Shown one piece after another: positions 1-64,000 of a DNA stretch of 64,000 nt. The notes beneath the pieces are model-generated. The model made no database searches. It saw only the letters and a program-made list of their open reading frames with translations, and was not told the DNA's origin. Positions within the stretch are counted from its first letter, which is position 1. The number at the start of each line of letters is the position of its first letter. The position numbers were made by a program, and so were the translations under genes. This stretch comes from the human T2T-CHM13v2.0 reference genome, Homo sapiens: NCBI RefSeq assembly GCF_009914755.1, contig NC_060936.1. The stretch is one strand, 5' to 3'.

Positions 1-336
1 GGTACCTGTGTCAATCAAAATGGACTAATTCAGAATAATTGATGCATGCATGCAGAGTTTGGCCCATAGAACTAAAACAAACACTGGATTGATTGACTAT
101 ATTTAAAAAGTCCGATTGGAACTTTTATACTGTGATCTTGTTCATTAATAAAGGTCGGCATTGTGTTTATGTCAACTTCAATCAGAAAGGAGCTAAGAGG
201 ATCAGTTTTGCCTACAGCAAGAGGAGATGGAGTTCAATTAATTTCCCATAAATATAGTATTTTCTGTGTTTTTGTTTGTTTTTGCTATGAAAAGAAATCA
301 AGGCTCATTTTTAAAATTGAAATAACTCAAAATCTT

Positions 337-673
<337 letters not shown>

Positions 674-1040
674 CTAATGACAATATTAGCATTTGTATTT
701 TATGGCCTTTAAGTTTTCAAAATTACTATGTATTCTGATAACTTGTTCAATATTCCACCAACAGAACAAAGCAAGCAAAATATTTATTATTATTTAACTA
801 TAAAAAACCTTTCTGTACATTAAGTAATCAAAACTATACAGCAGAGAATTATCAAAGATAAAACTTAAATGTTTTTTAAAGTAATGAAACACAAATTAAT
901 CTTTTCACTACTAAATAAATTCTGTCATGAACTTGCAATTCTAATGGATATTCTGCCACTTCTTGTTGAATGGGTCTTAAAGTTCTTGATGCAGAATAAG
1001 AGCAATCCTAGTGTATTTGAAATCAAATCACGTATTGACG

Positions 1041-1063
1041 TTCACTCTTCTTTTTATCTACAG
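1041..1063 (+). promoter_or_regulatory. Putative splice acceptor of the OR6C65 coding exon
   Basis: Pyrimidine tract TTCACTCTTCTTTTTATCTACAG ending 25 nt before the ATG; ORs typically have non-coding 5' exons. Confidence 0.55.
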
Positions 1064-1088
1064 ACCTATCAGAATTCAGAACTAAGCC

Positions 1089-2027
1089 ATGCCAAATATG
1101 ACATCAATTAGAGAATTCATTCTTCTGGGATTTACAGATAACCCAGAGTTACAAGTTGTGATATTCTTCTTTATGTTGATCACATACTTATTGAGTGTAA
1201 GTGGAAACATGATCATCATTATGTTAACATTGTCAAATATTCATTTGAAAACTCCTATGTATTTCTTCCTCAGGAATTTCTCTTTCTTAGAAATTTCATT
1301 TACGACAGTCTTCATTCCTAGATTTCTGATCAACATTGCTACAGGAGACACAACCATTTCCTATAATGCTTCCATGGCCCAAGTATTTTTTTTAATTCTT
1401 TTGGGATCAACAGAATTTTTTCTTCTGGCTGTCATGTCTTATGATCGCTATGTGGCTATCTGCAAACCTCTACATTATACAACCATCATGAGTAACAAAG
1501 TCTGTAATTGGCTTGTAATCAGCTCCTGGCTGGCTGGTTTTCTCATTATTTTTCCCCCCGTGATTATGGGCCTCCAACTGGATTTTTGTGACTCCAGCAC
1601 TATTGACCATTTCATCTGTGATTCTTCCCCTATGCTGCTGATTGCTTGCACAGACACACAGTTTCTAGAGCTTATGGCATTTTTGCTAGCAGTATTCACA
1701 CTCATGGTAACTTTGGCCTTGGTGGTTCTCTCCTACACACTCATCCTTAAAGCAATTCTGAAGATTCCCTCTGCCCAGCAAAGGAAAAAGGCTTTTTCAA
1801 CTTGTTCCTCCCATATGATTGTGGTTTCTGTTTCTTATGGGAGTTGCATTTTTATGTGTGTAAAAACATCTGCAAAAGAAGGTATGGCTTTGAGCAAAGG
1901 TGTAGCAGTGCTTAATACCTCTGTTGCTCCTATGTTGAATCCCTTTATTTATACCTTAAGAAACCAGCAGGTGAAACAGGCCCTTAGGGAATTCACCAAA
2001 AAAATATTATCATTGAACAAGCAATAA
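1089..2027 (+). CDS. OR6C65: Olfactory receptor, family 6 subfamily C (312 aa)
   Basis: Intronless 7TM ORF with N-glycosylation site NMT and motifs [46 protein letters not shown]; name from recalled sequence and position next to PHC1P1. Confidence 0.9.
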
Positions 2028-2376
2028 TGATAACTAAATCTGTGGCTGAAACACAAATAAGCCAATAAAAACACAAAGCATCTTTCTACGTAATAGGTAT
2101 ACACAAAGGAACACACATGCAAAGATTCACACCATTGTAGAGCTTACTTCTAGTGATAAAACACACATATGGAACAATCAATATAATAGAAAATTACCTA
2201 GTACTTTAGTAAGGAACAAATGCTATTTAAAAAAAATAGAAGAAATATGGTATAGAAAGTAATATGGCAGGTAGAATTCAAATTAAATAGCTTGGTCAAA
2301 GATTTCATGGTCATCTTAAAGCTTCTTTTATTTTTTTTCTATATTCACACATGTTTTTCTGTATTCTTTATATATA

Positions 2377-2430
2377 TTTTTTATTATACTTTAAGTTCTA
2401 GGGTACATGTGCACAACGTGCAGGTTTGTT
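2377..2430 (-). mobile_element. Very short 3'-terminal L1PA fragment
   Basis: TTTTTTATTATACTTTAAGTTCTAGGGTACATGTGCACAACGTGCAGGTTTGTT is the reverse complement of the L1PA 3' end. Confidence 0.85.
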
Positions 2431-4249
2431 CTTAATCTTTTCCTTTTTTTCTGTAATTTTTCCATCTTATCATATCTGTTTTATATTTATCAAGCAGATC
2501 AAGATTGTGAGGTGTGACTATTAAATAAATATTGGTCTTTGCTTTAAAAAGATATATAGCAAGCTCTAAATAGCCTATTCCAATCCTACCTGAAAATAAA
2601 TCATTTTATAAAAAATTAACAGCAACTCACAATTAATGAATGGATTAGCACCTAATTTCAACGTTGAGAAAACTGTGCTTTGTAATCCCGTATTCTATTG
2701 AACCTGATATTCAGAATCTGTACATGGAAAAACAGCTGAGAAACAATAATCTTCTGTGAAAATGGGCTATTTCAAGCCATCCAAGTTTTGCCAACTCTGC
2801 TTCATCAGAAAGATTTATCTGTGTCTTTCCAGATTTCACATGTTCTGTTAAGCAAAAATGGAAGTGTGAGAGACTGGAGCTGTTGGGGAGAACAATCTCC
2901 AATAAAGTGCTGCAAGCAGAGATATTAGAAATGATTGCTTTTACACTAAATGCAGTGACTTTACATTTTGTGATATATTATCATAACAATCCACCATCAA
3001 ATAGATGAAGGTAGGAGGTCATAAAAATGCAATCCATGAAGTTGCTGAAAATTAATGCAGGTTTGATATACACCCCTTTACCATGCACATAATGATCAGA
3101 GAACACAATTTTATTGATGCCCAAATAAATAAGAATAGTTCAAAGACAAATCATACACCTATGCAGTTTCCAAATAGTCAGCATAAATAGTGCACACAAT
3201 TTAATTAGTAGGAATAAAAATATTTTAAATAAATATGAAATTCAGAGCCTTGAAAATTAAAAATTTAATTTGAGGAAAACCAAATATATATATATTTAAT
3301 TTTATAAATTAATATAAAATAGGAAGATTAGTACATAAACTAATTACTTATAAATTCTAATCTTATATAAGATATGAGACTAGACCTTAAATTTATAAGG
3401 TTATAATTTTTTAATACTAATAAAACCACAAAATTGTGTAATTATGTGATACTAAGGTAATAATGGTACTATGTGCAATTACATAAAGACATTACTTTTA
3501 AGGAAAAGTATTAACTAGAAAATATTTATAAAGCAGCAAATAAACTGAATATATATTTTAACTATGAAACAAATTACCAAAAGATACAAAGTTCTAAGAG
3601 CTATGCCTCTGAAACATTTCCAAGATTTTAATATTATTTTATTCTAAATTTTAGAAGTATAAAACATTCATTTAAAGTATATATTCTTGTAAATAGTTGT
3701 AGACTATAAAATGGTTGAAAAAATATTCACTTAGTAATATACAAAATATCCATAACATATATGCATGTTCCCTGTATAAAATCTTACTGTAGTGGATCAA
3801 TACTATAAAAAAGATACTAGTATAAGATAAGAAACATAAGGAAATTTGACTAGGAAAATTTGGGATATAATGTATCATTTTGTCTTTTAAATAGGCCCAA
3901 TGAAAACAATGTATCAGATCTTAAATTATACTACTATTTACCCACAAATCATCAACAAAAAATTTTAAAATCTCTTAGTTGAGACAGATATGAAAATAAT
4001 TATGTTAAAGCCATAAGGAAAACACATAGTAAATGAGCAATTAAACTTTTACTCAAACATGAAACTAATATAATTTGTATTCCTGACAACAAAATAATAA
4101 TGCACAACCCCCACTTTGTATTATAGAGACGTTTGTCCTAGATGCATTTAACCAATGCTATAACATACAAAGCTGAAGCAAAATTCATAATATTCAAAAT
4201 GAGAAGACAGATATAACATTTTTTCGATATTTTTTACAAATATTCCCCA

Positions 4250-5670
4250 GAAAAGTTTTAAAATTACTGGAAACTAATCATAAAAAATTGAAGAAGTAAA
4301 AAATAAATGGAAAGATATCATGTGTTCATGGATTCAAAAAATTAGTATTGTTAAAATGTCTATACTATCCAGGTGAACTACAGATTCAATGTAATCCCTA
4401 TCAAAATTCTAATGGCATTTCCATAGAAATAGAAAAAAATCAATCCTATAGTTGATAAAGAACCACAAAATCCCAAATAGCCAAACCAACCATGAGAAAG
4501 AAAGAACAAAGATGGAGGCACCACATTTTATGATTTCAAACTATATCACACAGTCATAACAATCAAAACAGTATGGCACTGGAATATAAAACAGACACAT
4601 AGAACAATGTGACAAATTAGAAAGCAAATTTTTTTTAGAAAAAAAATCACATTTGATCAGGTTCCAAGAATAGAAATGTGGAAAGGATAGTCTCTTTGAT
4701 AAATGGTATTGAAGAAACTGAATATCCACATGCAAAAGAGTGAAATCGAACCCTTACCTCACACTATATACAAAACTTAATCCAAAATGGCTTAAAGACT
4801 TAAATGCAGTACCTAAAACCATAAAATGCCTAGAAGAAAACATAGGGAGAAAGTTTCTTGACATTAGTCTTTGCAATGATTTTTTGGATATGACACCAAA
4901 AGCTCAGGCAACAAAGGCAAAATTAAACAAGTGGGACTACACCAAACCAAAAAGTTTCTGTAGTGGAATGAAACAATCAACAAAATAAAAAGAAAATCTC
5001 CTATGGGCTGGGAAAAAAAATAATTCTGTTAAAAGGTTAACAATCCAAAATATATAAGTAACAAATATAACTCAATAGAAAAAAAATCCAATTTTAAAAA
5101 TGGGCAAAAAACCTGAATAAACATTTTTCTTCCAGAGAAGACATACAAATGGGCAAAAGGCATATGAAAACATCCTCAACATCACTAATCATCAGGGAAA
5201 TGCAAATAAAAATCACAATAAGATATCACCTCGCACCTGTTAGAGTAGGTAGCCTCAGAAAGATAAGAGATTAAGTGTTGGTGAGGGAGTGGAGAAAAGG
5301 GAACAGCCATATGTAAATTGGTACAGTCACATGGAAAACAGTTTGTAGGTTTCTCAAAATATTAAAAATAGAATTACCACACAGTTCAATTGTGAGTATA
5401 TATTTATATATTTATGACTATATATTCATAGGAAATGAAATCAGCATTGAAGAGATATCTACACGCATATGTTCATTGCAGCATTGTTCACCAAGGCAAG
5501 ATATGAAGATAATCTAAGTGATAAGTGACAGATGAATACATAAAGAAAATGTAATATATATGTATATACATATATGTTTACACACACAACACACACACAC
5601 ATAAAGGGACGTTATTCAGTCATAAAGAAGAAATCCCTGCCATTTGTGAAAGCATGGATGAAATTATGTT
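4250..5670 (+). mobile_element. Old L1 (L1M-type) ORF2 3' part
   Basis: Degenerate ORF2 peptide (PYLTLYTKLNPKWLKDLN...KAQATKAKLNKWDY) and L1 3' sequence; boundaries approximate. Confidence 0.8.
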
Positions 5671-9532: not shown

Positions 9533-10227
9533 AATCTTATTTTGTATTGTTTTTCTTCTTTTTTGTAAGATAAAGACAAATATTTATTTAGTCCCCTGGC
9601 TTTATTATTTCATTTAGATAAATATAGGACTTTTAACTTTTAGGTTCAGGGGTACACATACATGTTTATTATACAGGTAAATTGAATGTTATGGGGGCTT
9701 GGTGTACAGATTATTTCATTACCCAGGTAATAAGCATAGTACCTGATAAGTAGTTTTTTGATCCTCATTCTCCTTCCACCTTCCACCCTCAAGTAGGCCT
9801 GGTGGCTGTTGTTTTCTTCTTTGTGTCTATATGTGCTCAAAATTTAGCTCCCATTTATAAGTGAGATCACATAGTATTTGGTTTTCTGCAACGTAAGCAT
9901 TGTAGAGGTCTATGCTACTATGAATAGCGCTTCAGTGAACATATGCATGCATGTGTCTTTATGGTAGAATGATTTATATTCCTTTGAGTATATATCCAAT
10001 AATGGGATTGCTGGGTCAAATGGTAATTCTAAGTTCTTTTAGAAATTGCCACACTGCTTTCCACAATGCTTAAACTAATTAACATTCCCACCAACCATGT
10101 ATGAGTGTTTCCTTTTCTCCATAACCTCACCAGCATCAGTTATTTTCTAATATTTTAATAGTAGTCATTCTGACTGGTGTGAGATGATATCTCACTGTGG
10201 TTTGGAATTGCATTTCTCCAGTGATGT

Positions 10228-10240
10228 TGAGCATTTTTTC
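10228..10240. repeat. Target-site duplication, left copy (TGAGCATTTTTTC)
   Basis: Identical 13-mer at 15702-15714. Confidence 0.95.
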
Positions 10241-12269
10241 TTTTTTTTTTTTTTTTTTTTTTTTTGAGACACTGGATTTCTTTAATTAAAAAAAAAATGC
10301 CAAGAAACATTATTTATACAGGGTTGATTGTTTTCATGTTGTTATTCTGTACCCTATAGTAGCCTCCATGAGAATCTGGTATTTCTTGCTGCTTGGAACT
10401 ACTTTGCAGTGATTACTTGGTTGCAGTCCAAGTACTCTCGTTTAGTCTGAGCCTGGAGATGTTCTAGACTTGCTTCTCCCACCTCTGAGATTAGGACAGG
10501 AAAAATGTGAAATTTCCCAATTACAGGATTATACGGTACCATCACATCATTTGTGGAAATTGGGGTGACTGTATAGCTGGGATTGGGCTAAGGACTGTGG
10601 TCTTATCTGTCCACATACAGCCAAAATGCCTATCCAGAAATCCAGTTCGTTGGAAAGGAAAATTGGTACTCCTGTGCCACAGGGGTTCCAGAAAAGGGAA
10701 GTCACTTTACCTTGCGGTGGTGGGATCCTGATGTCTTTCATCCATTTGTAGTAAAAGCTGGTAAAGCTTTTCTTACTCCTGGTTCCCTACCAGTATTTCT
10801 AAACATGTCGCACTTTCTCCACAGGCATGTGGTTTTGACCTTTTTTTCAATCTTCTAGAAAGGGAACGGAAGCAGAAGTGGGACATCGAGGGCTCTGCTG
10901 TCCTCTGCGCTGGGTGTGGAATGCTGCTGCACCTGTCCCTTCTGCTGGCTCAGGGAAGTGTCTTCTTGCCCACATTTCTGTGGGGAAAGGTTTTTAATCC
11001 TCTGATGCTTCCATCTTCCTGTTTAGGCCATGTGCCCAGAAACCTGGACTGATCTTTCTTTAATAGTGAACCCCTGGGCCACTGAAGAGTAACATGGCTC
11101 CACTGGACACAAAAGAGGGATGGAATCAACAGGCAGGGGGCCTTTTATAAGCCTTAGGAAAAGAAAATGAAACTATTTCATCTTTGGACTTTTCAATACT
11201 ATTGGAGTGATTTTTTTCTTTCTAAACAGGGAAAATAATGTTACAAAAGCATCTTTTTTGTTATTTGTTTGCATCCCTCCCCCACACCCTGGTGTTTTAA
11301 AATGAAGAAAAAAAACCACTTTTTGTACAAAAACTCTTAATGATTAAAAAACAAACAAACAAAACATATTGGCCTTGTCATTTGTGTGAAAGTGGGCAAA
11401 GACTGGAATAGAGTAAGACAACTGAAACCAATTTTCATCCTTTTACTGAGGAAAAAAATATTTAATATTTTTGTTATATAAGGAATAGTGCCTAAGGCAG
11501 GTACTTATACTCCTGACCTCAGCCCCACACACTCTGGTTTTATAAAGCTATAGGACAGAGCAGAGATGGAACTGAAAAACAGGGTAGAAAATAACATAAA
11601 TTGGAGGGGAACAGTGGGATGCAGAAAGAATGACAACAGCCACATGTGCCCCAGTCAAATACTTTTAGTCCCTGCAGCAGAAGATGCCAACCAAGTCTCT
11701 ATACTGGCTGGGGATCCTGCCATGGATGCAGGAGAAAAAATTCAATCACAAGGGAGTAAGTGACAACAAAAAGAAAAAACTCTGAGCCACAGCTACACTG
11801 GGAGGGGGAAGGACCAGATTTTGCTACTTCTGTCACACAAGCTAGAAAAACCCTACCTCTCCCATTGGGCAGGCAACCTGACATTCCACCCAGTTCCTTG
11901 CCTTACCATACTATGTATTCCTCCTCTTGGAGAATTAAGACCTGGGCTAAATGCTCCACTCCGGGATAAGGCTGAGCAGTCCTAGTTCTCTAGACTGCCT
12001 CTTTTATAAAGATTGGATTAAGGTACGTGAAATGGTGAGAACTGTAAAGATTTTAAAAAATAAAGTAGAACCCAGAGAAAATGTCAAAGCTGCCGCCATG
12101 TAGCACCAGCAACCAATTCTTGCACTTCTCTTCCCTGTCTCAGTAATCCCCTACAGAAGGTTACATGATTGGAACAACTCTTTCTTCCCTGCAAAGTCTG
12201 CTGGTACCAGGTTATAACCTGGACAGTGGAGAGTGTCTGCCTTAGGCTGGTTTGTGCAAGAGGGCCACC

Positions 12270-13977
12270 TTAGGTCTCCTTGAGGACATTTATCTTGGCG
12301 CAGATCTTGAGGGCAGGGCCCAGCTTGATGTTCATGGCACTCATAAGATGTTCTTCTTTAAGTAATAAAAGGGCCTGTCCATCAATCTCCTGTGAGCGAA
12401 ATTCCTCTGCGATCTCTTGGCAGCCTTGGAGAGAAGCAATAAACTCGTACACCTCCTCTACACTCCAACGGCTGGGATTACTGGACAGGAACACAGGGTT
12501 GATGCCATGTAATTCCGGTGTAGGTGGAGCTGTATTGGGATTCCCCAGGTCACGTTCTCCATGCCCAGCTCTTACTGATAAAGGCCCAGGAGATGTTGGA
12601 GAGAGTGCTTCATCATAACTGGAATTATCTGAACCCCGGCTAGAGTCTTCTTGACCCCGGTGGCACTTGCCCTGAATCTTGGCACGGGCAATGTCAGAGG
12701 AGCTGCGGCGGGGTCCACGCCTGCGAACGCGAGCATAGTTGGCTTCTTGAAACTCTTTCATTTTTTTCCTCTTCAGCCGGAACTGATGGCTACAGCTCAC
12801 ATTGTACCTCTTAGCGCAAGTCATGGAGCAGAACCTCTTAGAGCCACGAAACTGCTCTGCGGGGGCGTACTTCCCACAGTACTCGCACTTCAGGAGACTC
12901 GCCTTCTTATCTAACTCAGCAGATGGGCTGTCCACTCCCAAAGGGCCACCTGACTGATTCTCAGTCAGCCCTGTCGGAAGGCCAGTCTGTAGTGGCTTCT
13001 CAGACTCCTTCAGTAACTGAGAACAACCCACCGGGAAAGGTTCTGCTCCTTCCTGGATAACAAAGCCTTCAATGATGTGGGTGAGAATCTGGGGCTTCAC
13101 GATGGCCTGTGGGGGTTTTGAGTCACCCATTTGTCTAGACACCATGGCTAGTGTAGGAGGCGGTACTGAAGGGGCGGGGGTCAAGGCTACTAGTTCACTG
13201 CTTGGAGTATTAGCATTCACATTAGCCACTGATTCAGCTTTTTCTCCAAGACTGCTCTTCTCGTCCATGACTTTTGGGCTTTCTGCTACTGGAGATGCCT
13301 TGGCAGGAAGCATTGAACCCAATGTGGAGACATCATCTCTCTCCTCCTCAGAGTCAGCCTTGCGTTTGACAGCCAATGTCTGGGGTTTACCCGGCAAGTG
13401 CACAGACTGCATATAGAAGGCAGCAGGGACCTGGGCTACAACAGGTGAGGAGGTGGTAGCCCCACCCTTTACCACATGTGCTGTCCCCTGCACAGGAGCA
13501 AGGGTCATCCCAGGGGCCAATGTGGGAGGGCACTCCTGCAGTGCACCAGGAGCCTGGGATGAAGGTGGCGAGGAGGCCAAATGGGCCTGACCAGACTGCA
13601 CTGTACCTGGCATCCCCCGGGAAGTAGGTACAGCAGCTGCCAGCTGTGCCAACCCCAAAGCCTGTGCCTGGGCTGTACCTGGCTGTCGAGTGCCTACAAC
13701 TTGCACAGGGATATGGGGTGGTGGTTGCTGGGCAGCTGACATCTTAGCGGCCCCTAACTGAGGCGGCTTGATAGGTGCTACAGGTGGTTTGGATTGGATG
13801 GGAATTGGTGGCTTAGGGGCTGCATCAGGTGGAAGAGACAAGGGTGAAGACTGAAGCATGGGCTGAACGACCAGGGTTTGGGCTTGCTGCTGGGACTGGG
13901 AAGGTGGGACCTGCTGAGTAGGTGGGACCTGTGGTGGCTGAGGGGCAGTGAGGGTGGTGGCTTGCGGCTGCTGCTGT

Positions 13978-14009
<32 letters not shown>

Positions 14010-15335
14010 CTGCGCCAACTGGAGGTGTGTAGCTGTGTGAAGGAGCTGGGACTGCCGGTGCTGGAACTGCTGCTGGTGGTGGATGGCAATCTGCTGCTGG
14101 ATCACCACCTGTTTCTGCTGGAGGTGGATCTGTTGCTGTTGCTGAATCAGTGAATGGGGCTGGATCTGTGTGTAGGTGGCTGAGCTAATAAGTGTCTGGC
14201 TGGGCGCAGGTGTGGCTGTCCGTGTCAGGTTCATGCCCACATTCTGCTGGCCACTCCCATCTGCTTCTGCCTTCTTGGCTGCTGCACTTTCTGCCTCTGT
14301 CTGGCTGCCCTGGCTCACAGTCACTGTTTGGGCTGCAGGCAAGGGCTGCACTACTCCTGTACCCTTCCTGGGACAGCTCCCACCACCCATTCCTGAGGAA
14401 GGCAACTGACCCAAACCACCATGTGCCTGCCCACCTCCACCTGGACCCATGGACCCTGGGATGCTATTCCCACTGCCTCCACCAGCTTGACTAAGGTTGA
14501 GGGACTGGTTTGTGGCCCCAGAGGAAGCCTGTGCCACCGCTAGGGCCTGGCTAGAGGCCTGGGAGAGGCTAGAGACAGGGGAGGCTCCTGGAGGAATGGC
14601 CTTCTGAGTGGAGCCTTGCATCTGAGGTCCTTGAGCTGAGGCCTGTTGATTCCTTACTGCCAAGTTCTGAACCTGATCTGCATCTGCATGAACTCCAGGA
14701 GACTGAGCAGATGGCACCTCCTGCTGGACTGCAGCCACTGCCCCATTAGGCATCAGGATGAGTTGGGAGGCTAGAGGCACATTCCGACCCAGGGTTCGGT
14801 TTACCTGCAATAGGTTTCCCAGCTGTGGCCGTAGATACATCTGGGCCTGAGACTGGTTGAGGGGTGGGGAGGTGGTGTTCCCCAGTAGCACAGATTGGGT
14901 CAAGGTGGTAGCACTGGGAGAGCTCACACTCTGGGATCGGCTGATGAGCTGGGCGGCCGATGTGGTGGCCAGATTGATCGAGGCCTGGGTGGTGGTAGTC
15001 TGCTGCTGTGTAGTGCTGGTGTTTGGGGAGCTGGCCTGCCGACTGGCAGCAATTGTGGCCTGTAGTGCCTGTCCCCTCCCTCTCGGGCCAGCTGGCTGCT
15101 GACCTCTCACCTGCTGGACGGCAGCCAGGCTATGCAGCTGGGCATTACTGAGCTGCTGCTGGAGCATGAACTGGTGGAAATACTGAGCTGCATTGGGCTG
15201 CCGCTGCAGTGCTTGCAGAGCCTGCACTGCTTGTCGTTCATATAGTGACATTTGAGCTATCTGGGGCCGAGAGCTGCCCCCTGAGCTAGAACTCCCATTG
15301 GTGGAATTGGAGTTCTGCTCGCTCGCAGTCTCCAT
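12270..15335 (-). CDS. PHC1P1: Intact ORF (1021 aa) for a PHC1-like protein: Q-rich N-terminus, HD1, FCS zinc finger, SAM domain
   Basis: ATG at 15335 in strong Kozak context (ACTATCATGG); HD1 (PQILTHIIEGFVIQEGAEPFPV), FCS (CEYCGK...RFCSMTCAKRY), SAM (WSVEEVYEFI...EIDGQALLLL...KLGPALKI); no stops or frameshifts. The ORF-track start at 15428 is a GTG. Translation is not demonstrated. Confidence 0.7.
13968..14012 (-). repeat. CAG/CAA repeat encoding 15 glutamines
   Basis: CTG/TTG triplets on the + strand. Confidence 0.9.
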
Positions 15336-15399
15336 GATAGTGGTCCAGGGTCCCCAAGGCTGGTGCTCTGTCTGACTCAAGACCTTCTCGCCTGGCTGT

Positions 15400-15701
15400 G
15401 CACCCAAGTCTTCCCCGGGGGCGTCCACCTCATGTGCCGGGGTCCCCAGTCGCCAGGCTGGGCTGGGGGCTCGCTCGGCCTCCGCGGCGGGCTCCCCTCG
15501 CCTCCTCCCCTTCCTGGAGGGGCGGGGGCGCCGAGGGCGGGGTGGGAGGCGCCCGGCGCGACCGCGGCTCCCCGCCCCTCCCGCCGCTCCGGGTGCGGGC
15601 CCGGCCGCGGCTCAGCCAGGCCTCCGGGGCTCGCTCCGGGCCTGTCACTTCCTGCCCGGCCGAGAAGGTGGGGGCCGCAGGCCAGGGGCTGCGGTCCGGG
15701 C
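15400..15701 (-). promoter_or_regulatory. CpG-island-like 5' segment with GC boxes and an ETS-like site
   Basis: Very GC/CpG-rich; GGGGCGGGG at 15519-15527, CCCGCCCC at 15571-15578, CACTTCCTG (CAGGAAGTG on -) at 15646-15654. Confidence 0.55.
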
Positions 15702-15714
15702 TGAGCATTTTTTC
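15702..15714. repeat. Target-site duplication, right copy (TGAGCATTTTTTC)
   Basis: Identical to 10228-10240. Confidence 0.95.
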
Positions 15715-18700
15715 ATATGCTTGTTGGCCACATGTATGTCTTCTTTTGAAAAGTATCTGTTCATGTCCTTTGCCCACTTTTTAATGGGGTTGTTTGTTTT
15801 TTTGTAGTAAGTTTGTTTAAGTTCCTTACAGATGCTGGATATTAGACCTTTGTCAGCTGCTTAGTTTGTGAGAATTTTCTCCCACTCTATAGGCTGTCTG
15901 TTAACTCTACTGATAGTTTCTCTTGCTATGCAGAAGCTCTTTGGTTTAATTAGGTCCCATTTGTCAATTTTTACTTTTGTTGCAATTTCTTTTGGCAACT
16001 TTGTCATGAAATCTTTGCTAAGTCCTGTATCCAGAATGATATTTCCTAGATTTTCCAGGGCTTTTATAGTTTTAGGTATTATATTTATGTCTTTAATCTA
16101 TCTTGAGTTGATTTTTGTATATGGTGTAAGGAAGGGAGCTAGTTTCAATCTTCCACATATGGCTAGCCAGTTATCCCAGCACCATTTATTAAATACTGAG
16201 TTCTTTCCCCATTGCATATTTTTGTCAATTATGTTGAATGTCAGATGGTTGCAGGTATGCAGCCTCATTTCTGGGCTGTCTATTTTGCTTCATTGGTCTA
16301 CGTATCTGTTTTTGTTCCAGTACCATGCTATTTTGGTTACTGTATCCTTGGAGTATAGTTTGAAGCCAGGTAATGTGATACCTCCAGCTTTATTCTTTTT
16401 GCTTAGGATTGCCTGGGCTATTCAGACTCTTTTTTAGTTCCATGTGAATTTTAAAATAGGTTTGTTGTAATTCTATGGAGAATGTCATTGGTAGTTTGAT
16501 AGTAACAGCATTGAATCTATAAATTGCTTTCAGAAGTATGGTCATTTAAAAATATTGATTCCTTCTATCCATTAATATGGAATGGTTTTCCATTTATTTG
16601 TGTCATCTCTGATTTCTTTGAGCAGTGGTTTGTAATTCTCATTGTAGAGGTCTTTCACCTCCTTGGTGGGCTATATTCCTAGGTACTTTATTCTTTTTGT
16701 GGCTATTTTGAATGGGATTGTGTTTTTAATTTTGCTTTCTGCTTGAATATTATTGGTTTATAGAAATGTTACTGATTTTTGTATACTGCATTTGTATCCT
16801 GAAACTTTGCTCAGATTGTTTATCAGCTGAAGGAACTTTTGGGAAGTGATTATGGCATTTCCTATGTACGGAATCATATCATTTACAAACAGAGATAGTT
16901 CGACTTCCTCTCTTCCTATTTGGATGTCTTTTATTTCTTTCTCTTGCCTGATTGCTCTGGCTAGGTTTTCCGGTACTACGTGGAATAGAAGTGGTGAAAG
17001 AAGGCATCCTTGTCTTGTTCATATTTTCAAGGGAATGCTTCCAGCTTTTGCCCATTTAGCATAATATTGGCTGTTGGTTTTTCACAGACGGCTGTTGTTA
17101 TTTTGAAGTATGTGTGTTCGTTGCTTAGTTTGTTGCGGGATTGTAAATTATAGAGAAGATGATTTCTATCAAAAGCCTTTTCTGCATCTACTGAGATGAT
17201 CATGTGGTTTTTGCTTTTAGTTCTGCTCATGTGGTGAATCACATTAATTGATTTGTGTATGTCGAACCAATTTTGCATCCCAGGAATAAAGCCTACTTGA
17301 TCGTGGTGGATTAGCTTTTCAATATGCTGCTGGATTTGGTTTACTAGTATTTTGTTTTGTGTTTATCCATCTATGTTAATCAAGGATATTGACCTTAAGT
17401 TTTCTTTTTTTGTTGTTATCTCTGGTAGGTTTTGGTATCAGGATGATGCTGGCCTCATAGAATAAGTTAGAGAGGACTCCTTCCTACTCAATTATTTGGA
17501 ATAGTTTCAGCAGGAATACTAACAGCTGTTTATTACACATTTGGTAAAATTCAGCTGTGAATCTCTCTGTTCCTGGGCTTTTTCTGGTTGGTAGTCTTTT
17601 TATTACTGATTCAATTTCAGAGCGCAGTGTTGTTCTCTTCAGGGATTCAATTTCTTCCTGGTTCATTCTTTGGAGGTTGTATGTGTCCAGGAATTTATCC
17701 AGTTCTTCTAGTTTTTCAAGCTTGTGCACATAGAGATGTTCATAATAGTCTCTGATGGGTTTTTGTATTTCTGTAGGGTCAGCAGTAGTGTCCCTTTTGT
17801 CATTTCTGATTGTGTTTCTTTGGATCTTCTCTCTCTTTTACATTAGTGTAGCTAGTGGTCTATCTTATTAATTTGTTCAAAACACCAGCTCCTGGAGTCA
17901 TTGATCTTTTGTATGGATTTTCATGTCTCAATTTCCTTCAGTTTAGCAATGATTTTAGTTATTTTTTTTCTGCTAGCCTTGGGATTAGGGTTGGTTTGTT
18001 CTTTCTCTAGTTTCTCTATTTGTGATGCTTAGGTTGTTAATTTGAAATCTTTCTAACTTTTTGATATGGTCATTTAGTGCTATAAACTTCCCTATTAACA
18101 CTGCGTTGACTGTGTCCCAGAGATTCTGGTATGTTGTGTCTTTTTTGTCATTATTTTCCGAGAATTTCTTTATTTCTGCCTTAATTTCATTATTTACCCA
18201 GAAGTCACTTAGAAGCAGTTTGTTTAATTTCCATGTAATTTTATGGTTTTGAGTGGTTTTCTTAGTATTTATTTCTATTTTACTGCACTGTGGTCTGAAA
18301 GCATGTTTTGTAAGATTTTTTTTTAATTTATTGAGGATTGTTTTAGACCTGATGTGTGGTCATTTTTGGAGTATGTGCCATGTGCAGGTGAGAAGAATGT
18401 ATATTCTGCTCTTTTGGGATAGATGTAGATGTCCATTTGGTCAAATGCTGAGTTTAATACTATCAGTGGGGTGTTAAAAGTCTCCCACCATTATTGGCTG
18501 GTTATCTAAGTCTCTTCGTGAGTCTCTAACAACTTGCTTTATGAATCTGGGTGCTCCTGTGTTGGGTATATATATATATATATTCATGATAGTTAGGTCA
18601 TCTTGTTGAATTGAGCCCTTACTATTGTGTAATGCCCTTCTTTTACTTTTTTATCTTGATTTAAAGTCTGTTTTGTCTGAAATTAGAATAGCAACCTTTG

Positions 18701-32628: not shown

Positions 32629-35127
<2,499 letters not shown>

Positions 35128-59375: not shown

Positions 59376-59859
59376 AAAATGCATGCAACTGACAAAGACA
59401 TGAAGAGAGAAAAAGGTAAATGTAAAAGACTACAAAACAAAAATCTTAAAATATGTTTTGCTGAGTTTAAAATATGCATACAAGTACAAAACATGACAAT
59501 AATTACCAAAGAGCAAAAAAAGCTACATAGAGATAGACTATTTCAAGTCATTCTTGCAGATCTTATGTTGTTCAGGTTGTGGTTAAAAATACTAACTAAG
59601 CTGTAAAAAGTCAAATAATAAATGTTGTACTCATTACTGAAATCATTAAAAGAATATTACAAAATGATAAAACTAAAAAGTTAATAGATAAGAAAAATGG
59701 AACAATAAAAAATGTGTGATCTAAATGATTTTATGAATGTATTAATAAGAATGAAGAACATATGAGGCAAATAGAAAATAACTAGCAAGATAGTAGACAT
59801 AAAACCCATTATAATTATTAGAGTAAATACTTTGTAATTGCTGATAAATATAAAAATGT

Positions 59860-62800
59860 GAGGTCCATTCCAAGATGGCCAAATAGGAACAGCTTCGGTC
59901 TGCAGCTCCCAGCGTGATCAACACAGAAGACAGGTGATTTCTGCATTTCCAACTGAGGTACCTGGTTCGTCTCATTGGGACAGGTTGGACAGTGGGTGCA
60001 GCCCATGGAGGGTGAGCTGAAGCAGGGCGGGGCATCACCTCACCCAGGAAGCACAAGGGCTCGGGAGATTTTCCTTTCCTAGCCAAGGGAAGCAGTGACA
60101 GACTGTACCTGGAAAAATGGGACACTCTTGCCCAAATACTGCACTTTTCCCATGGTCTTAGCAACCAGCAGACCAGGAGCTTCTCTCTTGTGCCTGTCTC
60201 GGTGGGTCCCATGCCTATGGAGCCTTGCTCACTGCTAGAGCAGCAGTCTGAGATTGACCTGCGAGGCTGTAGCCAGGTGTGGGGAGGGGCATACAACATT
60301 GCTGAGGCTTGAGTAGGTAAACAAAGTGACTAGGAAGCTCAAACTGGCTGGAGCCCACCACAGCTCAGCAAGGTCTGCTGCCTCTATAGACTCCACTTCT
60401 GTAGGCAGGGCATAGCTGAAAAACAGGCAAGAGAAACTTCTGCAGACTTAAACGTCCCTGTCTGACAGCTCTGAAGAGAGCAGTGGTTCTCCCAGCACGG
60501 TGTTTGAGCTCTGAGAACGGACAGACTACCTCCTCAAGTGGGTCCCTGACCCCCATGTAGCCTAAGTGGGAGACACCTCCCAGTAGGGGCCAACAGACAC
60601 CTCATACAGGTGGGTGTCCCTCTGGGATGAAGCTTCCAGAGGAAGAATCAGGCAGCAATATTTGCTGTTCTGCAGCCTCTGCTGGTGATACCTAGGGAAA
60701 CAGGGTCTGGAGTGGACCTCCAGCAAACTCCAACAGACCTGCAGCTGAGGTACCTGACTGTTAGAAGGAAAACTAACAACCAGAAAGGAATAGCATCAAT
60801 ATCAATAAAAAAGACATCCACACCAAAACCCCATCTGTAGGTCACAATCATCAAAGACCAAAGGTAGATAAAACCACAAAGATGGGGAGAAACCAGAGCA
60901 GAAAAGCTGAAAATTCTAAAAATCAGAGCACCTCTTCTCCTCCAAAGGATCACAGCTCCTCGCCAGCAATGGAACAAAGCTGGACAGAGAATGACTTGGA
61001 AGAGTTGACAGAAGTAGGCTTCAGAAGGTCGATAATAACAAAATTCGCCTAGCTAAAGGAGCATGTTCTAACCCATCTCAAGAAAGCTAAAAACCTTGAA
61101 AAAAGATTAGATGAATGGCTAACTAGAAAAAGCAGTGTAGAGAAGACCTTAAATAACCTGATGGAGCTGAAAACCATGGCACAAGAACTTCGTGATGCAT
61201 CCACAAGCTTCAATAGCTGATTCAATCAAGTGGAAGAAAGGGTGTCAGTGATTGATGATCAAATTAATGAAATAAAGTGAGAAGACAAGTTTAGAGAAAA
61301 AAGAATAAAAAGAAATGAACAAAGCCTACAAGAAGTATGGGACTATGTGAAAAGACCAAATCTACATTTGTTTGGTGTACCTGAAAGTGACAGAGAGAAT
61401 GGAACAAAGTTGGAAAACACTCTTCAGGATATTATCTAGGAGAACTTCCCTAACCTAGCAAGGCAGGCCAACTTCAAATTTCCTGAATTTGAATACAGAG
61501 AATACCACAAAGATATTACTAGAAAAAAGCAACCCCAAGACACATAATTATCAGATTCACCAAGGTTGAAATGAAGGAAAAAATGTTAAGGGCAGCCAGA
61601 GAGAAAGGTCGGGTTACCCTCAAAGGGAAGCCCATCAGACTAACAGCGGATCTCTCGGCAGAAACCCTACAAGCCAGAAGAGAGTGGGGGCCAATATTCA
61701 ACATTCTTAAAGAAAAGAATTTTCAACCCAGAATTTCATATCCAGCCAAACTAAGCTTCATAAGTGAAGGAGAAATAAAATCCTTTACAGACAAGCAAAT
61801 GCTGAGAGATTTTGTCACCACCAGGCCTGCCCTAAAAGAGCTCCTGAAGGAAGCACTAAACATGGAAAGGAACAACCGGTACCAGCCACTGCAAAAACAT
61901 ACCAAATTGTAAAGACCATCGAGGCTAGGAAGAAACTGCATCAATTAACAGGCAAAATAACCAACTAACATAATAATGACAGGATCAAATTTACATATAA
62001 CAATATTAACCTTAAATGTAAATGGGCTAAATGCCCCCAATTAAAAGACACAGACTGGCAAATTGAACAAAGAGTCAAGACCCATCAGTGTGCTCTATTC
62101 AGGAGACCCATCTCATGTGCAGAGACACATATAGGCTCAAAATAAAGGGATGGAGGAAGATCTACCAAGCAAATGGAAAACAAAAAAAAGCAGGGGTTGC
62201 AATCCTAGTCTCTGATAAAAAAAGACTTTAAACCAACAAAGAGACAAACAACTCAAAAGAGACAAAGGCCATTACATAATGGTAAAGGGATCAATTCAAC
62301 AGGAAGAGCTAACTATCCTAAACATATATGCACCCAATACATGAGCACCCAGATTCATAAAGCAAGTCCTTAGAGACCTACAAGGAGACTTAGACTCCCA
62401 CACATTAATAATGGGAGAATTTAACACCCCACTGTCAACATTAGACAGATCAATGAGACAGAAGGTTAACAAGGATATCCAGGACTTCAACACAGCTCTT
62501 CACCAAGTGGACCTAATAGACATGTACAGAACTCTCCACCCCAAATCAACAGAGTATACATTCTTCTCAGCACCACATCGCACTTATTCCAAAATTGACC
62601 ACACAGTTGGAAGTAAAGCACTCCTCAGCAAATGTAAAAGAAAAGAAATCACAAAAAAACTGCCTCTCAGACCACAGTGCATTCAAATTAGAACTCAGGA
62701 TTAGGAAAATCACTCAAAACCGCACAACTACATGGAAACTGAACAACCTGTTTCTGAATCACTACTGGGTAAATAACGAATTGAAGGCAGAAATAAAGAT

Positions 62801-64000
62801 TTTCTTTGAAACCAATGAGAACTAAGACACAATGACCAGAATCTCTGGGACACATTTAAAGCAGTGTGTACAGGGAAATTTATAGCACTAAATGCCCACA
62901 AGAGAAGCAGGAAAGATCTAAAATTGACACCCTAACATCACAATTAAAAGAACAAAAGAAGCAAGAGCAAACAAATTCAAAAGCTAGCAGAAGGCAAGAA
63001 ATAACTAAGATCAGAGCAGAACTGAAGGAGATAGAGACACAAAAAACCCTTCAAAAAATCAATGAATCCAGGAGCTGGTTTTTTGAAAAGATCAACAAAA
63101 TTGATAGACCACTAGCAAGACTAATAAAGAATAAAACAGAGAAGAATCAAACAGACGCAATGAAAAATGATAAATGGGATATCACCATCAATCCCACAGA
63201 AATACAAATTACCATCAGAGAATACTACAAACAACTCTATGCAAATAAACTAGAAAATCTAGGAGAAATGGATAAATTCCTGGACACATACACCCTCCCA
63301 AGACTAAACCAGGAAGAAGTTGAATCTCTGAATAGACCAATAACAGGCTCTGAAATTGAGGCAATAATTAATAGTCTACCACCAAAAAAAAGTCCAGAAC
63401 CAGATGGATTTACAGTCAAATTCTACCAGAGGTACAAAGAGGAGCTGGTACCATTCCTTCTGAAACTATTCCAATCAATAGACAAAGAGAGAATCCTCCC
63501 TAACTCATTTTATGAGGCCAGCATCATCCTGATACCAAAGCCTGGCAGAGACACCACAAAAAAAGAGAATTTTAGACCAATATCCCTGATGAACATCGAT
63601 GTGAAAATCCTCAGTAAAATACCGGCAAACCCAATCCAGCAGCACAAATAAAAAGTTTATCTACCATGATCAGGTCAGCTTCATCCCTAGGTTGCAAGGC
63701 TGGTTCAACATACATAAATCAATCAACATAATCCATCACATAAACAGAACCAACGACAAAAACCACATGATTATCTCAATAGATGCAGAAAAGGCCTTCA
63801 ACAAAATTCAACAGCCCTTCATGCTAAAAACTCTCAATAAACTAGCTATTGATGGGACGTATCTCAAAATAATTAGAGCTAGTTATGACAAACCCACAGC
63901 CAATATCATACTGAATGGGCAAAAACTGGAAGCATTCCCTTTGAAAACTGGCACAAGAAAAGGATGCCCTCTCTCACCACTCCTATTCAACATAGTACTG
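59860..64000 (+). mobile_element. L1PA (PA6/7-like) with intact 5' end, running off the window; ORF1 (60882-61912) and ORF2 (from 61976) disrupted
   Basis: 5' YY1 motif CAAGATGGCC at 59871-59880; ~1-kb 5' UTR; ORF1 C-terminus (REKGRVTLKGKPIRLTADLS); ORF2 pieces with stops and frameshifts. Confidence 0.95.

What the first reader, a model, noticed from the sequence alone, without database searches (positions are those of the whole stretch)
10228..15714. Full-length PHC1 retrocopy with a fully intact ORF: candidate Polycomb retrogene inside an OR cluster
Seen: 5.46-kb intronless copy with a perfect 13-bp TSD, a pure 25-nt poly(A) tail, ATTAAA signal, long UTRs, strong Kozak ATG and 1021 uninterrupted codons retaining HD1, FCS and SAM domains. 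Against my recollection of 1004-aa PHC1 it differs only by a 17-aa insert and about two substitutions (METE>META, KKAN>KKAS). Established: PHC1 is the SAM-polymerising subunit of canonical PRC1, and this locus is recalled as annotated pseudogene PHC1P1. Inference: a very young insertion, possibly human- or hominine-specific, able to supply a second PHC1 protein. Its intactness could simply reflect youth rather than selection.
Basis: partly seen in the sequence, partly recalled or inferred. Interest (0 to 1): 0.85.

Follow-up and report, generated by a model that had tools for sequence, protein, structure and literature searches.

The report
Young intact PHC1 retrocopy (PHC1P1)
This is the already annotated processed pseudogene PHC1P1, a very recent, full-length, reverse-transcribed copy of the Polycomb gene PHC1 whose reading frame is still whole most likely because it is young, not because it is used.

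Summary
Window 10228-15714 (minus strand) is an intronless, full-length copy of PHC1 mRNA. It has a perfect 13-nt target-site duplication, a pure 25-A tail and an ATTAAA signal. Its ORF runs 1021 codons and encodes the FCS finger, the SAM-associated region and the SAM domain.

Two corrections:
- The "17-aa insert" is a 51-nt alternative-donor extension of parent exon 3, predicted in the parent gene (Gnomon models).
- There are three amino-acid differences, not two: E4A, A710T and N813S. At residue 710 the retrocopy keeps the mammalian ancestral Thr, so the parent is the one that changed.

Copy and parent mRNA differ by 12 substitutions and 3 indels in 5442 nt (0.22%). That is too few for a copy as old as the human-chimpanzee split (P about 3e-5). 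Insertion on the human lineage is therefore supported but not shown directly.

The intact ORF is expected by chance in roughly 0.3-0.5 of neutral copies of this age. dN/dS is 0.24 (p = 0.065, seven changes), which does not discriminate.

The copy sits in an old L1 ORF2 fragment inside an olfactory-receptor cluster and lacks the parent's upstream promoter. Transcription and translation could not be tested here.

Verdict: a known, young processed pseudogene with unproven coding potential.

The parts
15702..15714 (-). 5' target-site duplication (13 nt). Its last base could equally be the first base of the mRNA copy.
10261..15701 (-). Retrocopy body: all 15 PHC1 exons joined (first exon 8896754-8897072, long form of exon 3), 5441 nt.
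15336..15701 (-). 5'UTR copy. About 77% G+C, CpG observed/expected 0.68, 37 CpG, the same number as the parent. It is the only CpG-island-like stretch in the 64-kb window. Contains one upstream ATG at 15431-15433.
12270..15335 (-). Intact ORF, 1021 codons plus TAA. Equals the predicted long-exon-3 isoform of PHC1 with E4A, A710T and N813S.
15060..15110 (-). 51 nt (17 aa) from the alternative downstream donor of parent exon 3. This is the gap in RefSeq's two-block PHC1P1 model.
13047..13094 (-). HD1 core motif (aa 748-763), invariant in the 9-sequence alignment. The domain name is recalled.
12804..12893 (-). FCS zinc finger (aa 815-844).
12279..12470 (-). SAM domain (aa 956-1019).
10261..12269 (-). 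3'UTR copy (about 2.0 kb). 4 substitutions and all 3 indels relative to the parent.
10281..10286 (-). ATTAAA polyadenylation signal, identical in the parent.
10241..10265 (-). Pure poly(A), 25 A. 5 are also present in the parent genome, so at least 20 are untemplated.
10228..10240 (-). 3' target-site duplication (13 nt).
15715..15858 (-). 5' flank: an old L1 ORF2 fragment in the same orientation as the retrocopy. Window 15702-15800 matches ORF2p residues 1064-1096.
9930..10227 (-). 3' flank: continuation of the same L1 fragment. Window 10154-10219 matches ORF2p residues 1103-1123.

Best explanation
PHC1P1 is a young processed pseudogene. A capped, spliced and polyadenylated PHC1 transcript was reverse-transcribed by the L1 machinery. 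That transcript started at the main RefSeq TSS and used the downstream donor of exon 3. The cDNA was primed on a T-run at a nick in an old L1 ORF2 fragment between OR6C65 and OR6C76, which produced a 13-nt target-site duplication. The event most likely happened on the human lineage after the split from chimpanzee, within roughly the last third of that branch. The 1021-codon ORF is whole because too little time has passed for a disabling mutation. Since the copy has no upstream PHC1 promoter and sits in an olfactory-receptor cluster, its most likely state is silent or weakly and incidentally transcribed, with no protein role.

Shown: the anatomy, the parentage, the isoform of origin, the divergence and the ORF integrity.
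Inferred: the age, the neutrality and the silence.
For: - Parentage: end-to-end alignment to the spliced parent mRNA with 12 substitutions and 3 indels in 5442 nt. The parent exons and this copy are the only PHC1-like loci in the assembly.
- Insertion marks: target-site duplication, pure A tail and ATTAAA signal.
- Insertion site: the two flanks match adjacent parts of L1 ORF2p, residues 1064-1096 and 1103-1123, so the copy interrupts one L1 fragment. The nick site reads T6/C on the opposite strand, which is L1-endonuclease-like (the consensus is established knowledge).
- Age: if the copy dated from the human-chimpanzee split, about 33 substitutions would be expected on its lineage alone (0.6% per lineage, recalled). 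P(12 or fewer) = 3e-5.
- No sign of gene conversion: differences are evenly spread (KS p = 0.82; largest identical tract 1144 nt, p = 0.43). The A tail and the duplication, which the parent cannot homogenise, are also pristine.
- Relaxed constraint: 2 of the 3 amino-acid changes are derived in the copy. One is E4A, at a site that is E in 119 of 119 matched non-primate PHC1s.
- ORF survival under neutrality: 0.75-0.80 for no stop and 0.43-0.67 for no frameshift.
- Published base rate: 9 of 14 human-specific retrocopies of coding genes keep their ORF, and none of the 16 studied was transcribed from its 5' CpG island (PMC5010893, abstract and section 5).
Against: - Pairwise dN/dS is 0.24, below 1, although p = 0.065 with 7 changes and the estimate includes the constrained parent lineage.
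- All 3 indels fall outside the CDS (P = 0.083 if placed uniformly), although they lie in simple T/A-rich runs of the 3'UTR.
- The copy carries a 367-nt CpG-island-like 5' end with all 37 CpG intact, which could in principle serve as a promoter.
- Array, TCGA and RT-PCR papers list PHC1P1 as expressed (PMC3484327, PMC9706917; passages only), but at 99.6% identity to PHC1 their specificity is unknown.
- If my recalled link of ENSG00000179899 to this locus is right, PMC3196496 Table 3 lists it as human-specific, biased to prefrontal cortex, with one fetal or infant brain EST.
- No ape, archaic or population sequence could be examined, so the age rests on a molecular clock alone.
Confidence: 0.8

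Rival explanations
1. It is a functional, human-lineage protein-coding retrogene. The copy is transcribed, either from its inherited CpG-rich 5' end or from a flanking promoter. It is translated into a PHC1 long-isoform variant (A4, T710, S813) that joins canonical PRC1 through its HD1, FCS and SAM domains.
For: - Intact 1021-codon ORF with a strong start context and all domains.
- None of the three changes falls inside the FCS, SAM or HD1 core.
- dN/dS is 0.24.
- No indel in the CDS.
- A CpG-island-like 5' end.
- A possible listing as a human-specific, cortex-biased new gene in PMC3196496, Table 3. The link from that ID to this locus is recalled only.
Against: - ORF survival is expected by chance in roughly 0.3-0.5 of neutral copies.
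- dN/dS is not significant and mixes in the parent lineage.
- E4A hits a residue that is invariant in 119 of 119 matched mammals, which suggests relaxed constraint.
- The upstream flank is a dead L1 fragment and there is no other CpG island in the 64 kb.
- RefSeq curates the locus as a pseudogene.
- 0 of the 16 comparable retrocopies used its 5' CpG island (PMC5010893, abstract).
Confidence: 0.08
2. It is a transcribed but non-coding regulator. Its RNA keeps the PHC1 3'UTR and acts as a decoy for microRNAs that target PHC1, as the pseudogene-ceRNA literature proposes.
For: - The roughly 2.0-kb 3'UTR is kept with only 4 substitutions and 3 indels.
- PMC3484327 (passage) tabulates 46 predicted microRNA sites shared by PHC1P1 and PHC1.
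- PMC8071448 (passages) lists PHC1P1 as a putative microRNA sponge.
Against: - Those claims are in-silico site predictions plus array signals that cannot separate a 99.6%-identical copy from its parent.
- No stoichiometry or perturbation data were seen.
- Transcription of this locus is itself unproven here.
Confidence: 0.09
3. It is an older retrocopy, predating the human-chimpanzee split, that looks young because gene conversion from PHC1 (46 Mb away on the same chromosome) has homogenised it.
For: Both loci are on chromosome 12, and identity is very high.
Against: - The differences are evenly spread with no long converted tracts beyond chance.
- The retrocopy keeps the ancestral Thr710 where the parent is derived.
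- The poly(A) tail (25 pure A) and both copies of the duplication, which have no parental template, show no decay.
Confidence: 0.03

Closest known systems
PHC1P1, RefSeq curated pseudogene (polyhomeotic homolog 1 pseudogene 1)
   Same: It is this locus. RefSeq places it at window 10261-15691, minus strand (and the supplied annotation).
   Different: - The annotation shows two blocks and gives no ORF.
- Here the gap is explained by the 51-nt alternative-donor segment.
- The 5' end is extended by 10 nt to the parent TSS.
- The ORF is shown to be intact.
Human-specific retrocopies with 5' CpG islands (the 16 loci of PMC5010893, such as NUS1P1, AK4P3 and ZNF322P1)
   Same: - Very young, full-length copies carrying the parent's CpG-rich 5' end.
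- Most have intact ORFs with 0-8 amino-acid changes and Ka/Ks below 1 with little statistical power.
   Different: - PHC1P1 is not in that list.
- Their filter matched each CpG island against the whole orthologous ape chromosome (section 11). By my inference this would discard a copy whose parent lies on the same chromosome.
- Human specificity of PHC1P1 is inferred here from a clock, not from an empty ape site.
- Its 3.07-kb ORF is long for a retrocopy of this kind, though I did not compare ORF lengths across that list.
Functional human-lineage retrogenes such as NANOGP8 and CSNK2A3 (named in a passage of PMC4558860)
   Same: A recent retrocopy of a developmental or regulatory gene with a preserved ORF.
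   Different: According to that passage, those have been described as functional. PHC1P1 has no evidence of that kind that I could find.
PTENP1-type pseudogene microRNA decoys
   Same: A retained parental 3'UTR, and a listing as a putative sponge (PMC8071448, PMC3484327; passages).
   Different: Only predicted sites are reported. I saw no experiment on PHC1P1.

Membership tests
L1-mediated processed pseudogene / retrocopy | Intronless copy of the spliced parental mRNA | tested here: met
   All 15 exons are contiguous, covering parent mRNA positions 1-5442 at 99.633% identity. In the genome search the parent matches exon by exon and the copy matches in one piece.
L1-mediated processed pseudogene / retrocopy | Untemplated poly(A) tail directly after the parental cleavage site | tested here: met
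   25 A at 10241-10265. The parent genome has only 5 A at that point.
L1-mediated processed pseudogene / retrocopy | Flanking target-site duplication at an A/T-rich nick site | tested here: met
   A 13 of 13 direct repeat abuts both ends. The target reads T6/C on the opposite strand. The L1 endonuclease consensus is recalled.
L1-mediated processed pseudogene / retrocopy | Parent's upstream promoter not copied | tested here: met
   The copy starts within 1 nt of the annotated TSS, and the sequence upstream is L1 ORF2.
Protein-coding retrogene | Intact ORF | tested here: met
   1021 codons with no stop.
Protein-coding retrogene | Purifying selection on the copy's own lineage | tested here: inconclusive
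   - Pairwise dN/dS is 0.24, with 3 nonsynonymous changes in 2316 sites and 4 synonymous in 747; Fisher p = 0.065.
- Only the 3 nonsynonymous changes could be polarised: 2 on the copy, 1 on the parent.
- No primate DNA was available to polarise the rest.
Protein-coding retrogene | Transcription and translation assignable to the copy | not testable with these tools
Published expression claims do not show that they separate the copy from the parent (PMC3484327, PMC9706917; passages).
Protein-coding retrogene | Retention across species or depletion of disabling alleles in populations | not testable with these tools
   No ape genomes, pangenome or population tables were reachable. One search returned no primate proteins (best hit Tupaia, 94%).
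Polyhomeotic (PHC) subunit of canonical PRC1 (encoded protein) | FCS zinc finger and C-terminal SAM domain | tested here: met
   zf-FCS_1 at 60.1 bits, PHC2_SAM_assoc at 81.8 bits and SAM_1 at 50.6 bits, all above their curated cut-offs.
Polyhomeotic (PHC) subunit of canonical PRC1 (encoded protein) | HD1 region | tested here: met
   The core motif at aa 748-763 is identical in all 9 aligned sequences. The HD1 name and its role are recalled, and Pfam has no model for it.
Pseudogene microRNA decoy (ceRNA) | Shared 3'UTR target sites plus sufficient expression | tested here: inconclusive
   The 3'UTR is kept. Expression was not testable. The literature offers predictions only (PMC3484327, PMC8071448; passages).

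The most novel reading that the evidence does not exclude
PHC1P1 is a retrogene specific to the human lineage that became a second, independently regulated source of a PHC1 long-isoform protein. PHC1 is a core, SAM-polymerising PRC1 subunit and a primary-microcephaly gene. The copy would be expressed in germline, early embryo or fetal cortex. It also preserves the ancestral Thr710 that the parent gene has since replaced with Ala, so modern humans would carry both the old and the new PHC1 protein forms.
Probability: 0.07. Interest if true: 0.7.

Novelty: already known. Interest (0 to 1): 0.3.

Why it matters
As it stands this is an ordinary, annotated young processed pseudogene. It has three practical uses.

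- **Confounder.** At 99.6% identity over 5.4 kb it can confound short-read RNA, exome, methylation and array measurements of PHC1, a microcephaly and Polycomb gene. Its diagnostic differences, including the three codon changes, could appear as spurious PHC1 variants. This is inference.
- **Dated snapshot of PHC1.** It shows that the long-exon-3 isoform, which in human RefSeq exists only as Gnomon models, was expressed in the germline or early embryo. It also shows that Ala at parent residue 710 (693 in the 1004-aa form) probably arose after the retroposition.
- **Possible second PHC1 source.** If it proved to be transcribed and translated, it would be a human-lineage duplicate of a PRC1 core subunit. 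That would be of real interest for human-specific chromatin regulation, but nothing here shows it.

Tried and rejected
- **Primate outgroups.** The protein word search listed its best 120 hits, all non-primate mammals, with Tupaia at 94% as the best. No primate or human protein appeared. I could therefore polarise only the three amino-acid changes, using non-primate mammals. The nine other substitutions could not be polarised.
- **Literature on age or coding status.**
  - 'PHC1P1' found 5 papers.
  - 'PHC1B' found 1 paper, seen as a listing only.
  - 'PHC1 + pseudogene + retrocop' found 1 paper.
  - 'PHC1 + processed pseudogene' found 3 papers.
  - 'human-specific retrocop' found 5 papers.
  - None states that the ORF is intact or dates the insertion.
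Either could settle the age question and the residue-710 question.
- **Ensembl ID.** I searched for ENSG00000179899, which I recalled as this locus. It appears in PMC3196496, Table 3, as a branch-12 (human-specific), cortex-biased gene with one EST. I could not verify the link from that ID to this locus with any tool (one search found nothing more), so I use it only as a flagged lead.
- **Gene conversion.** Rejected as the main explanation (plus the pristine tail and duplication).
- **Assembly or cDNA contamination.** Rejected. The copy has a target-site duplication inside a contiguous L1 fragment and an independent curated annotation.
- **Structured RNA.** The Rfam scan of 10000-16000 found 0 matches.
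- **Other ORFs.** Pfam on five other ORFs in the window found only an L1 reverse-transcriptase domain at 32668-33330. The other 4 of 5 had no match.
- **A stray hit.** PMC11065029 mentions PHC1 only for an unrelated intronic Alu.

Full report
**What is there.**
- Read on the minus strand, window 10228-15714 consists of a 13-nt direct repeat (15702-15714), a 5441-nt body (15701-10261), 25 uninterrupted A (10265-10241) and the same 13-mer again (10240-10228).
- The 13-mer occurs 3 times in the 64-kb window against 0.03 expected. The third copy, at 34341-34353, lies in another L1, next to the ORF at 32668-33330 that matches the reverse-transcriptase family. The repeat is therefore native L1 sequence that was duplicated at the insertion.
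- The largest ORF runs from the ATG at 15335 to the TAA at 12270, 1021 codons. The start context has A at -3 and G at +4.
- Pfam finds zf-FCS_1 (aa 815-844), PHC2_SAM_assoc (845-952) and SAM_1 (956-1019), all above their curated cut-offs.

**Parentage.**
- RefSeq places PHC1 at chr12:8896088-8923703 and PHC1P1 at this locus.
- I fetched the parent, joined its annotated exons in a script and aligned the result. The copy matches parent mRNA positions 1-5442 end to end at 99.633% identity.
- A whole-genome search with the ORF finds only this copy, in one piece, and the parent exon by exon. Beyond those it finds only the SAM exons of two paralogous loci (presumably PHC3 and PHC2, by recall) and CAG-repeat noise.
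- The copy starts within 1 nt of the TSS of the RefSeq Select transcript and ends at its cleavage site. The parent genome has five A there, followed by unrelated sequence.

**The '17-aa insert'.**
- Parent exon 3 has two GT donors 51 nt apart. Gnomon models such as XM_054371354 use the downstream one.
- The retrocopy contains exactly these 51 nt at 15060-15110. This is also the gap in RefSeq's two-block drawing of PHC1P1.
- The same segment occurs in 2 of 120 non-primate PHC1 proteins returned. One is a wallaby isoform, identical at 16 of 17 residues. The other is a fin-whale prediction.
- The insert is therefore a feature of the source transcript, not a change in the copy.

**Differences.** There are 12 substitutions and 3 indels:

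| Region | Length (nt) | Substitutions | Indels |
|---|---|---|---|
| 5'UTR | 367 | 1 | 0 |
| CDS | 3066 | 7 | 0 |
| 3'UTR | 2009 | 4 | 3 (+4, -3, -1 nt, all in T/A-rich runs) |

In the CDS, 4 changes are synonymous and 3 are not: E4A, A710T and N813S. Polarised with non-primate mammals:
- Residue 4 is E in 8 of 8 aligned outgroups and in 119 of 119 matched sequences out of 120, so Ala is derived in the copy.
- Residue 710 is T in 8 of 8 outgroups. Among 112 matched sequences it is T in 98, P in 8, S in 5 and A in 1. The copy therefore keeps the ancestral state and the parent is derived.
- Residue 813 is N in 5 of 8 outgroups. Among 114 matched sequences it is N in 102, A in 8 and S in 4, so Ser is probably derived in the copy at a variable site.
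- A passage of PMC8091745 says PHC1 has human-specific substitutions, most of them predating the archaic split. The residues are in a supplement I could not open.

**Age.**
- Total divergence is 0.22%.
- I take about 0.6% per lineage since the human-chimpanzee split (established knowledge, recalled). A copy of that age would then carry about 33 substitutions on its own lineage. P(12 or fewer) is 3e-5, and 9e-4 even at 0.5% per lineage.
- With 9-12 changes on the copy's lineage and rates of 0.5-1.0e-9 per site per year, point estimates are 1.7-4.4 million years. The intervals span 0.8-7.7.
- In relative terms this is about a third or less of the human branch.
- The differences are evenly spread (KS p = 0.82). 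The longest identical tract, 1144 nt, is unremarkable (p = 0.43).
- The tail and the duplication, which the parent cannot overwrite, are undecayed. Gene conversion is therefore an unlikely cause of the similarity.
- This is a clock inference. No ape, archaic or population sequence was available.

**Is the intact ORF evidence of function?**
- In simulation, 5-7 neutral substitutions leave the ORF free of stops in 0.80-0.75 of trials. Plausible indel-to-substitution ratios give 0.43-0.67 for no frameshift. An intact ORF is therefore expected in roughly 0.3-0.5 of neutral copies.
- Pairwise dN/dS is 0.24 with Fisher p = 0.065. It includes the constrained parent lineage.
- All three indels lying outside the CDS has P = 0.083 under uniform placement, but they sit in simple runs.
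- In PMC5010893 (section 5), 9 of 14 human-specific retrocopies of coding genes keep full ORFs.
- The data do not separate selection from youth, and youth suffices.

**Can it be expressed?**
- The copy lacks the sequence upstream of the TSS.
- Its 5' flank (15702-15800) matches L1 ORF2p residues 1064-1096 at E = 1e-13. Its 3' flank (10154-10219) matches residues 1103-1123 at E = 3e-4. The copy therefore lies in sense orientation inside one decayed L1 fragment.
- Its own 5'UTR is the only CpG-island-like stretch in the window: 77% G+C, observed/expected CpG 0.68, and 37 CpG, the same number as the parent.
- PMC5010893 found that none of its 16 human-specific retrocopies was transcribed from its 5' CpG island, although 12 were transcribed. 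Nine of the islands were heavily methylated in almost all tissues and cell lines except testis (abstract, section 6).
- PHC1P1 is absent from that list. Their filter matched each island against the whole orthologous ape chromosome (section 11). By my inference that would discard a copy whose parent is on the same chromosome.
- Papers that list PHC1P1 as deregulated or as a microRNA sponge rely on arrays, TCGA counts, predicted sites or RT-PCR of unstated specificity (PMC3484327, PMC8071448, PMC9706917; passages only).
- PMC3196496, Table 3, lists ENSG00000179899 as human-specific and biased to prefrontal cortex, with one fetal or infant brain EST. I recall that ID as this locus but could not verify it.
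- The Rfam scan found nothing.

**Verdict.**
- The locus is the known processed pseudogene PHC1P1. It was made by L1-mediated retroposition of a full-length long-exon-3 PHC1 transcript, most likely on the human lineage.
- Its ORF is intact as expected for its age. Any function, whether protein or RNA, remains untested.
- Interest is modest. It is a known object of a common kind, with a low-probability but attractive reading as a human-lineage second PHC1 gene.

Noticed in passing
window 15060-15110 (-); parent chr12:8902113-8902163: The 51-nt alternative-donor extension of PHC1 exon 3 has only Gnomon models in human. It also appears in a wallaby isoform (16 of 17 residues identical) and in a fin-whale prediction, 2 of 120 non-primate proteins in all. 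The retrocopy shows that this isoform was made in the germline or early embryo.
   Followed up: partly
window 13206-13208 (-); parent mRNA position 2495: At residue 710 (693 of the 1004-aa form) the retrocopy has Thr. So do 98 of 112 matched non-primate mammals and 8 of 8 aligned outgroups. The parent PHC1 in this assembly has Ala. The parent probably changed after the retroposition. PMC8091745 reports human-specific PHC1 substitutions, but the details are in a closed supplement.
   Followed up: partly
window 10261-15691 (RefSeq PHC1P1 model): RefSeq's two-block structure (10261-15059 and 15111-15691) reflects alignment to the short-exon-3 mRNA and is not an intron. The model also stops 10 nt short of the true 5' end at 15701.
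   Followed up: yes
window 32668-34476 (+): Another L1 ORF2 remnant. The ORF at 32668-33330 matches Pfam RVT_1 (E = 2.8e-40). The adjacent 362-aa ORF (33388-34476) has no Pfam match but contains the same 13-mer at 34341-34353. I looked at it once only.
   Followed up: partly
window 15401-15700: The retrocopy's 5' end is the only stretch in the 64-kb window that meets simple CpG-island criteria in 200-nt windows (one marginal 200-nt window inside the ORF aside). The olfactory-receptor genes around it have none.
   Followed up: yes
window 15431-15433 (-): There is one upstream ATG in the 5'UTR. By my reading of the sequence it opens a short out-of-frame uORF. It is inherited from the parent, whose 5'UTR differs from the copy's at a single base.
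   Followed up: no
window 62866-63651 (+), 59742-60299 (-), 15868-16437 (+): Unannotated ORFs of 185-261 aa with no Pfam match. They are probably chance ORFs in repeats.
   Followed up: partly
literature (PMC5010893, section 11): The published screen for human-specific retrocopies with 5' CpG islands compares each island with the whole orthologous ape chromosome. By my inference it is therefore blind to retrocopies that landed on the same chromosome as their parent, as this one did.
   Followed up: partly
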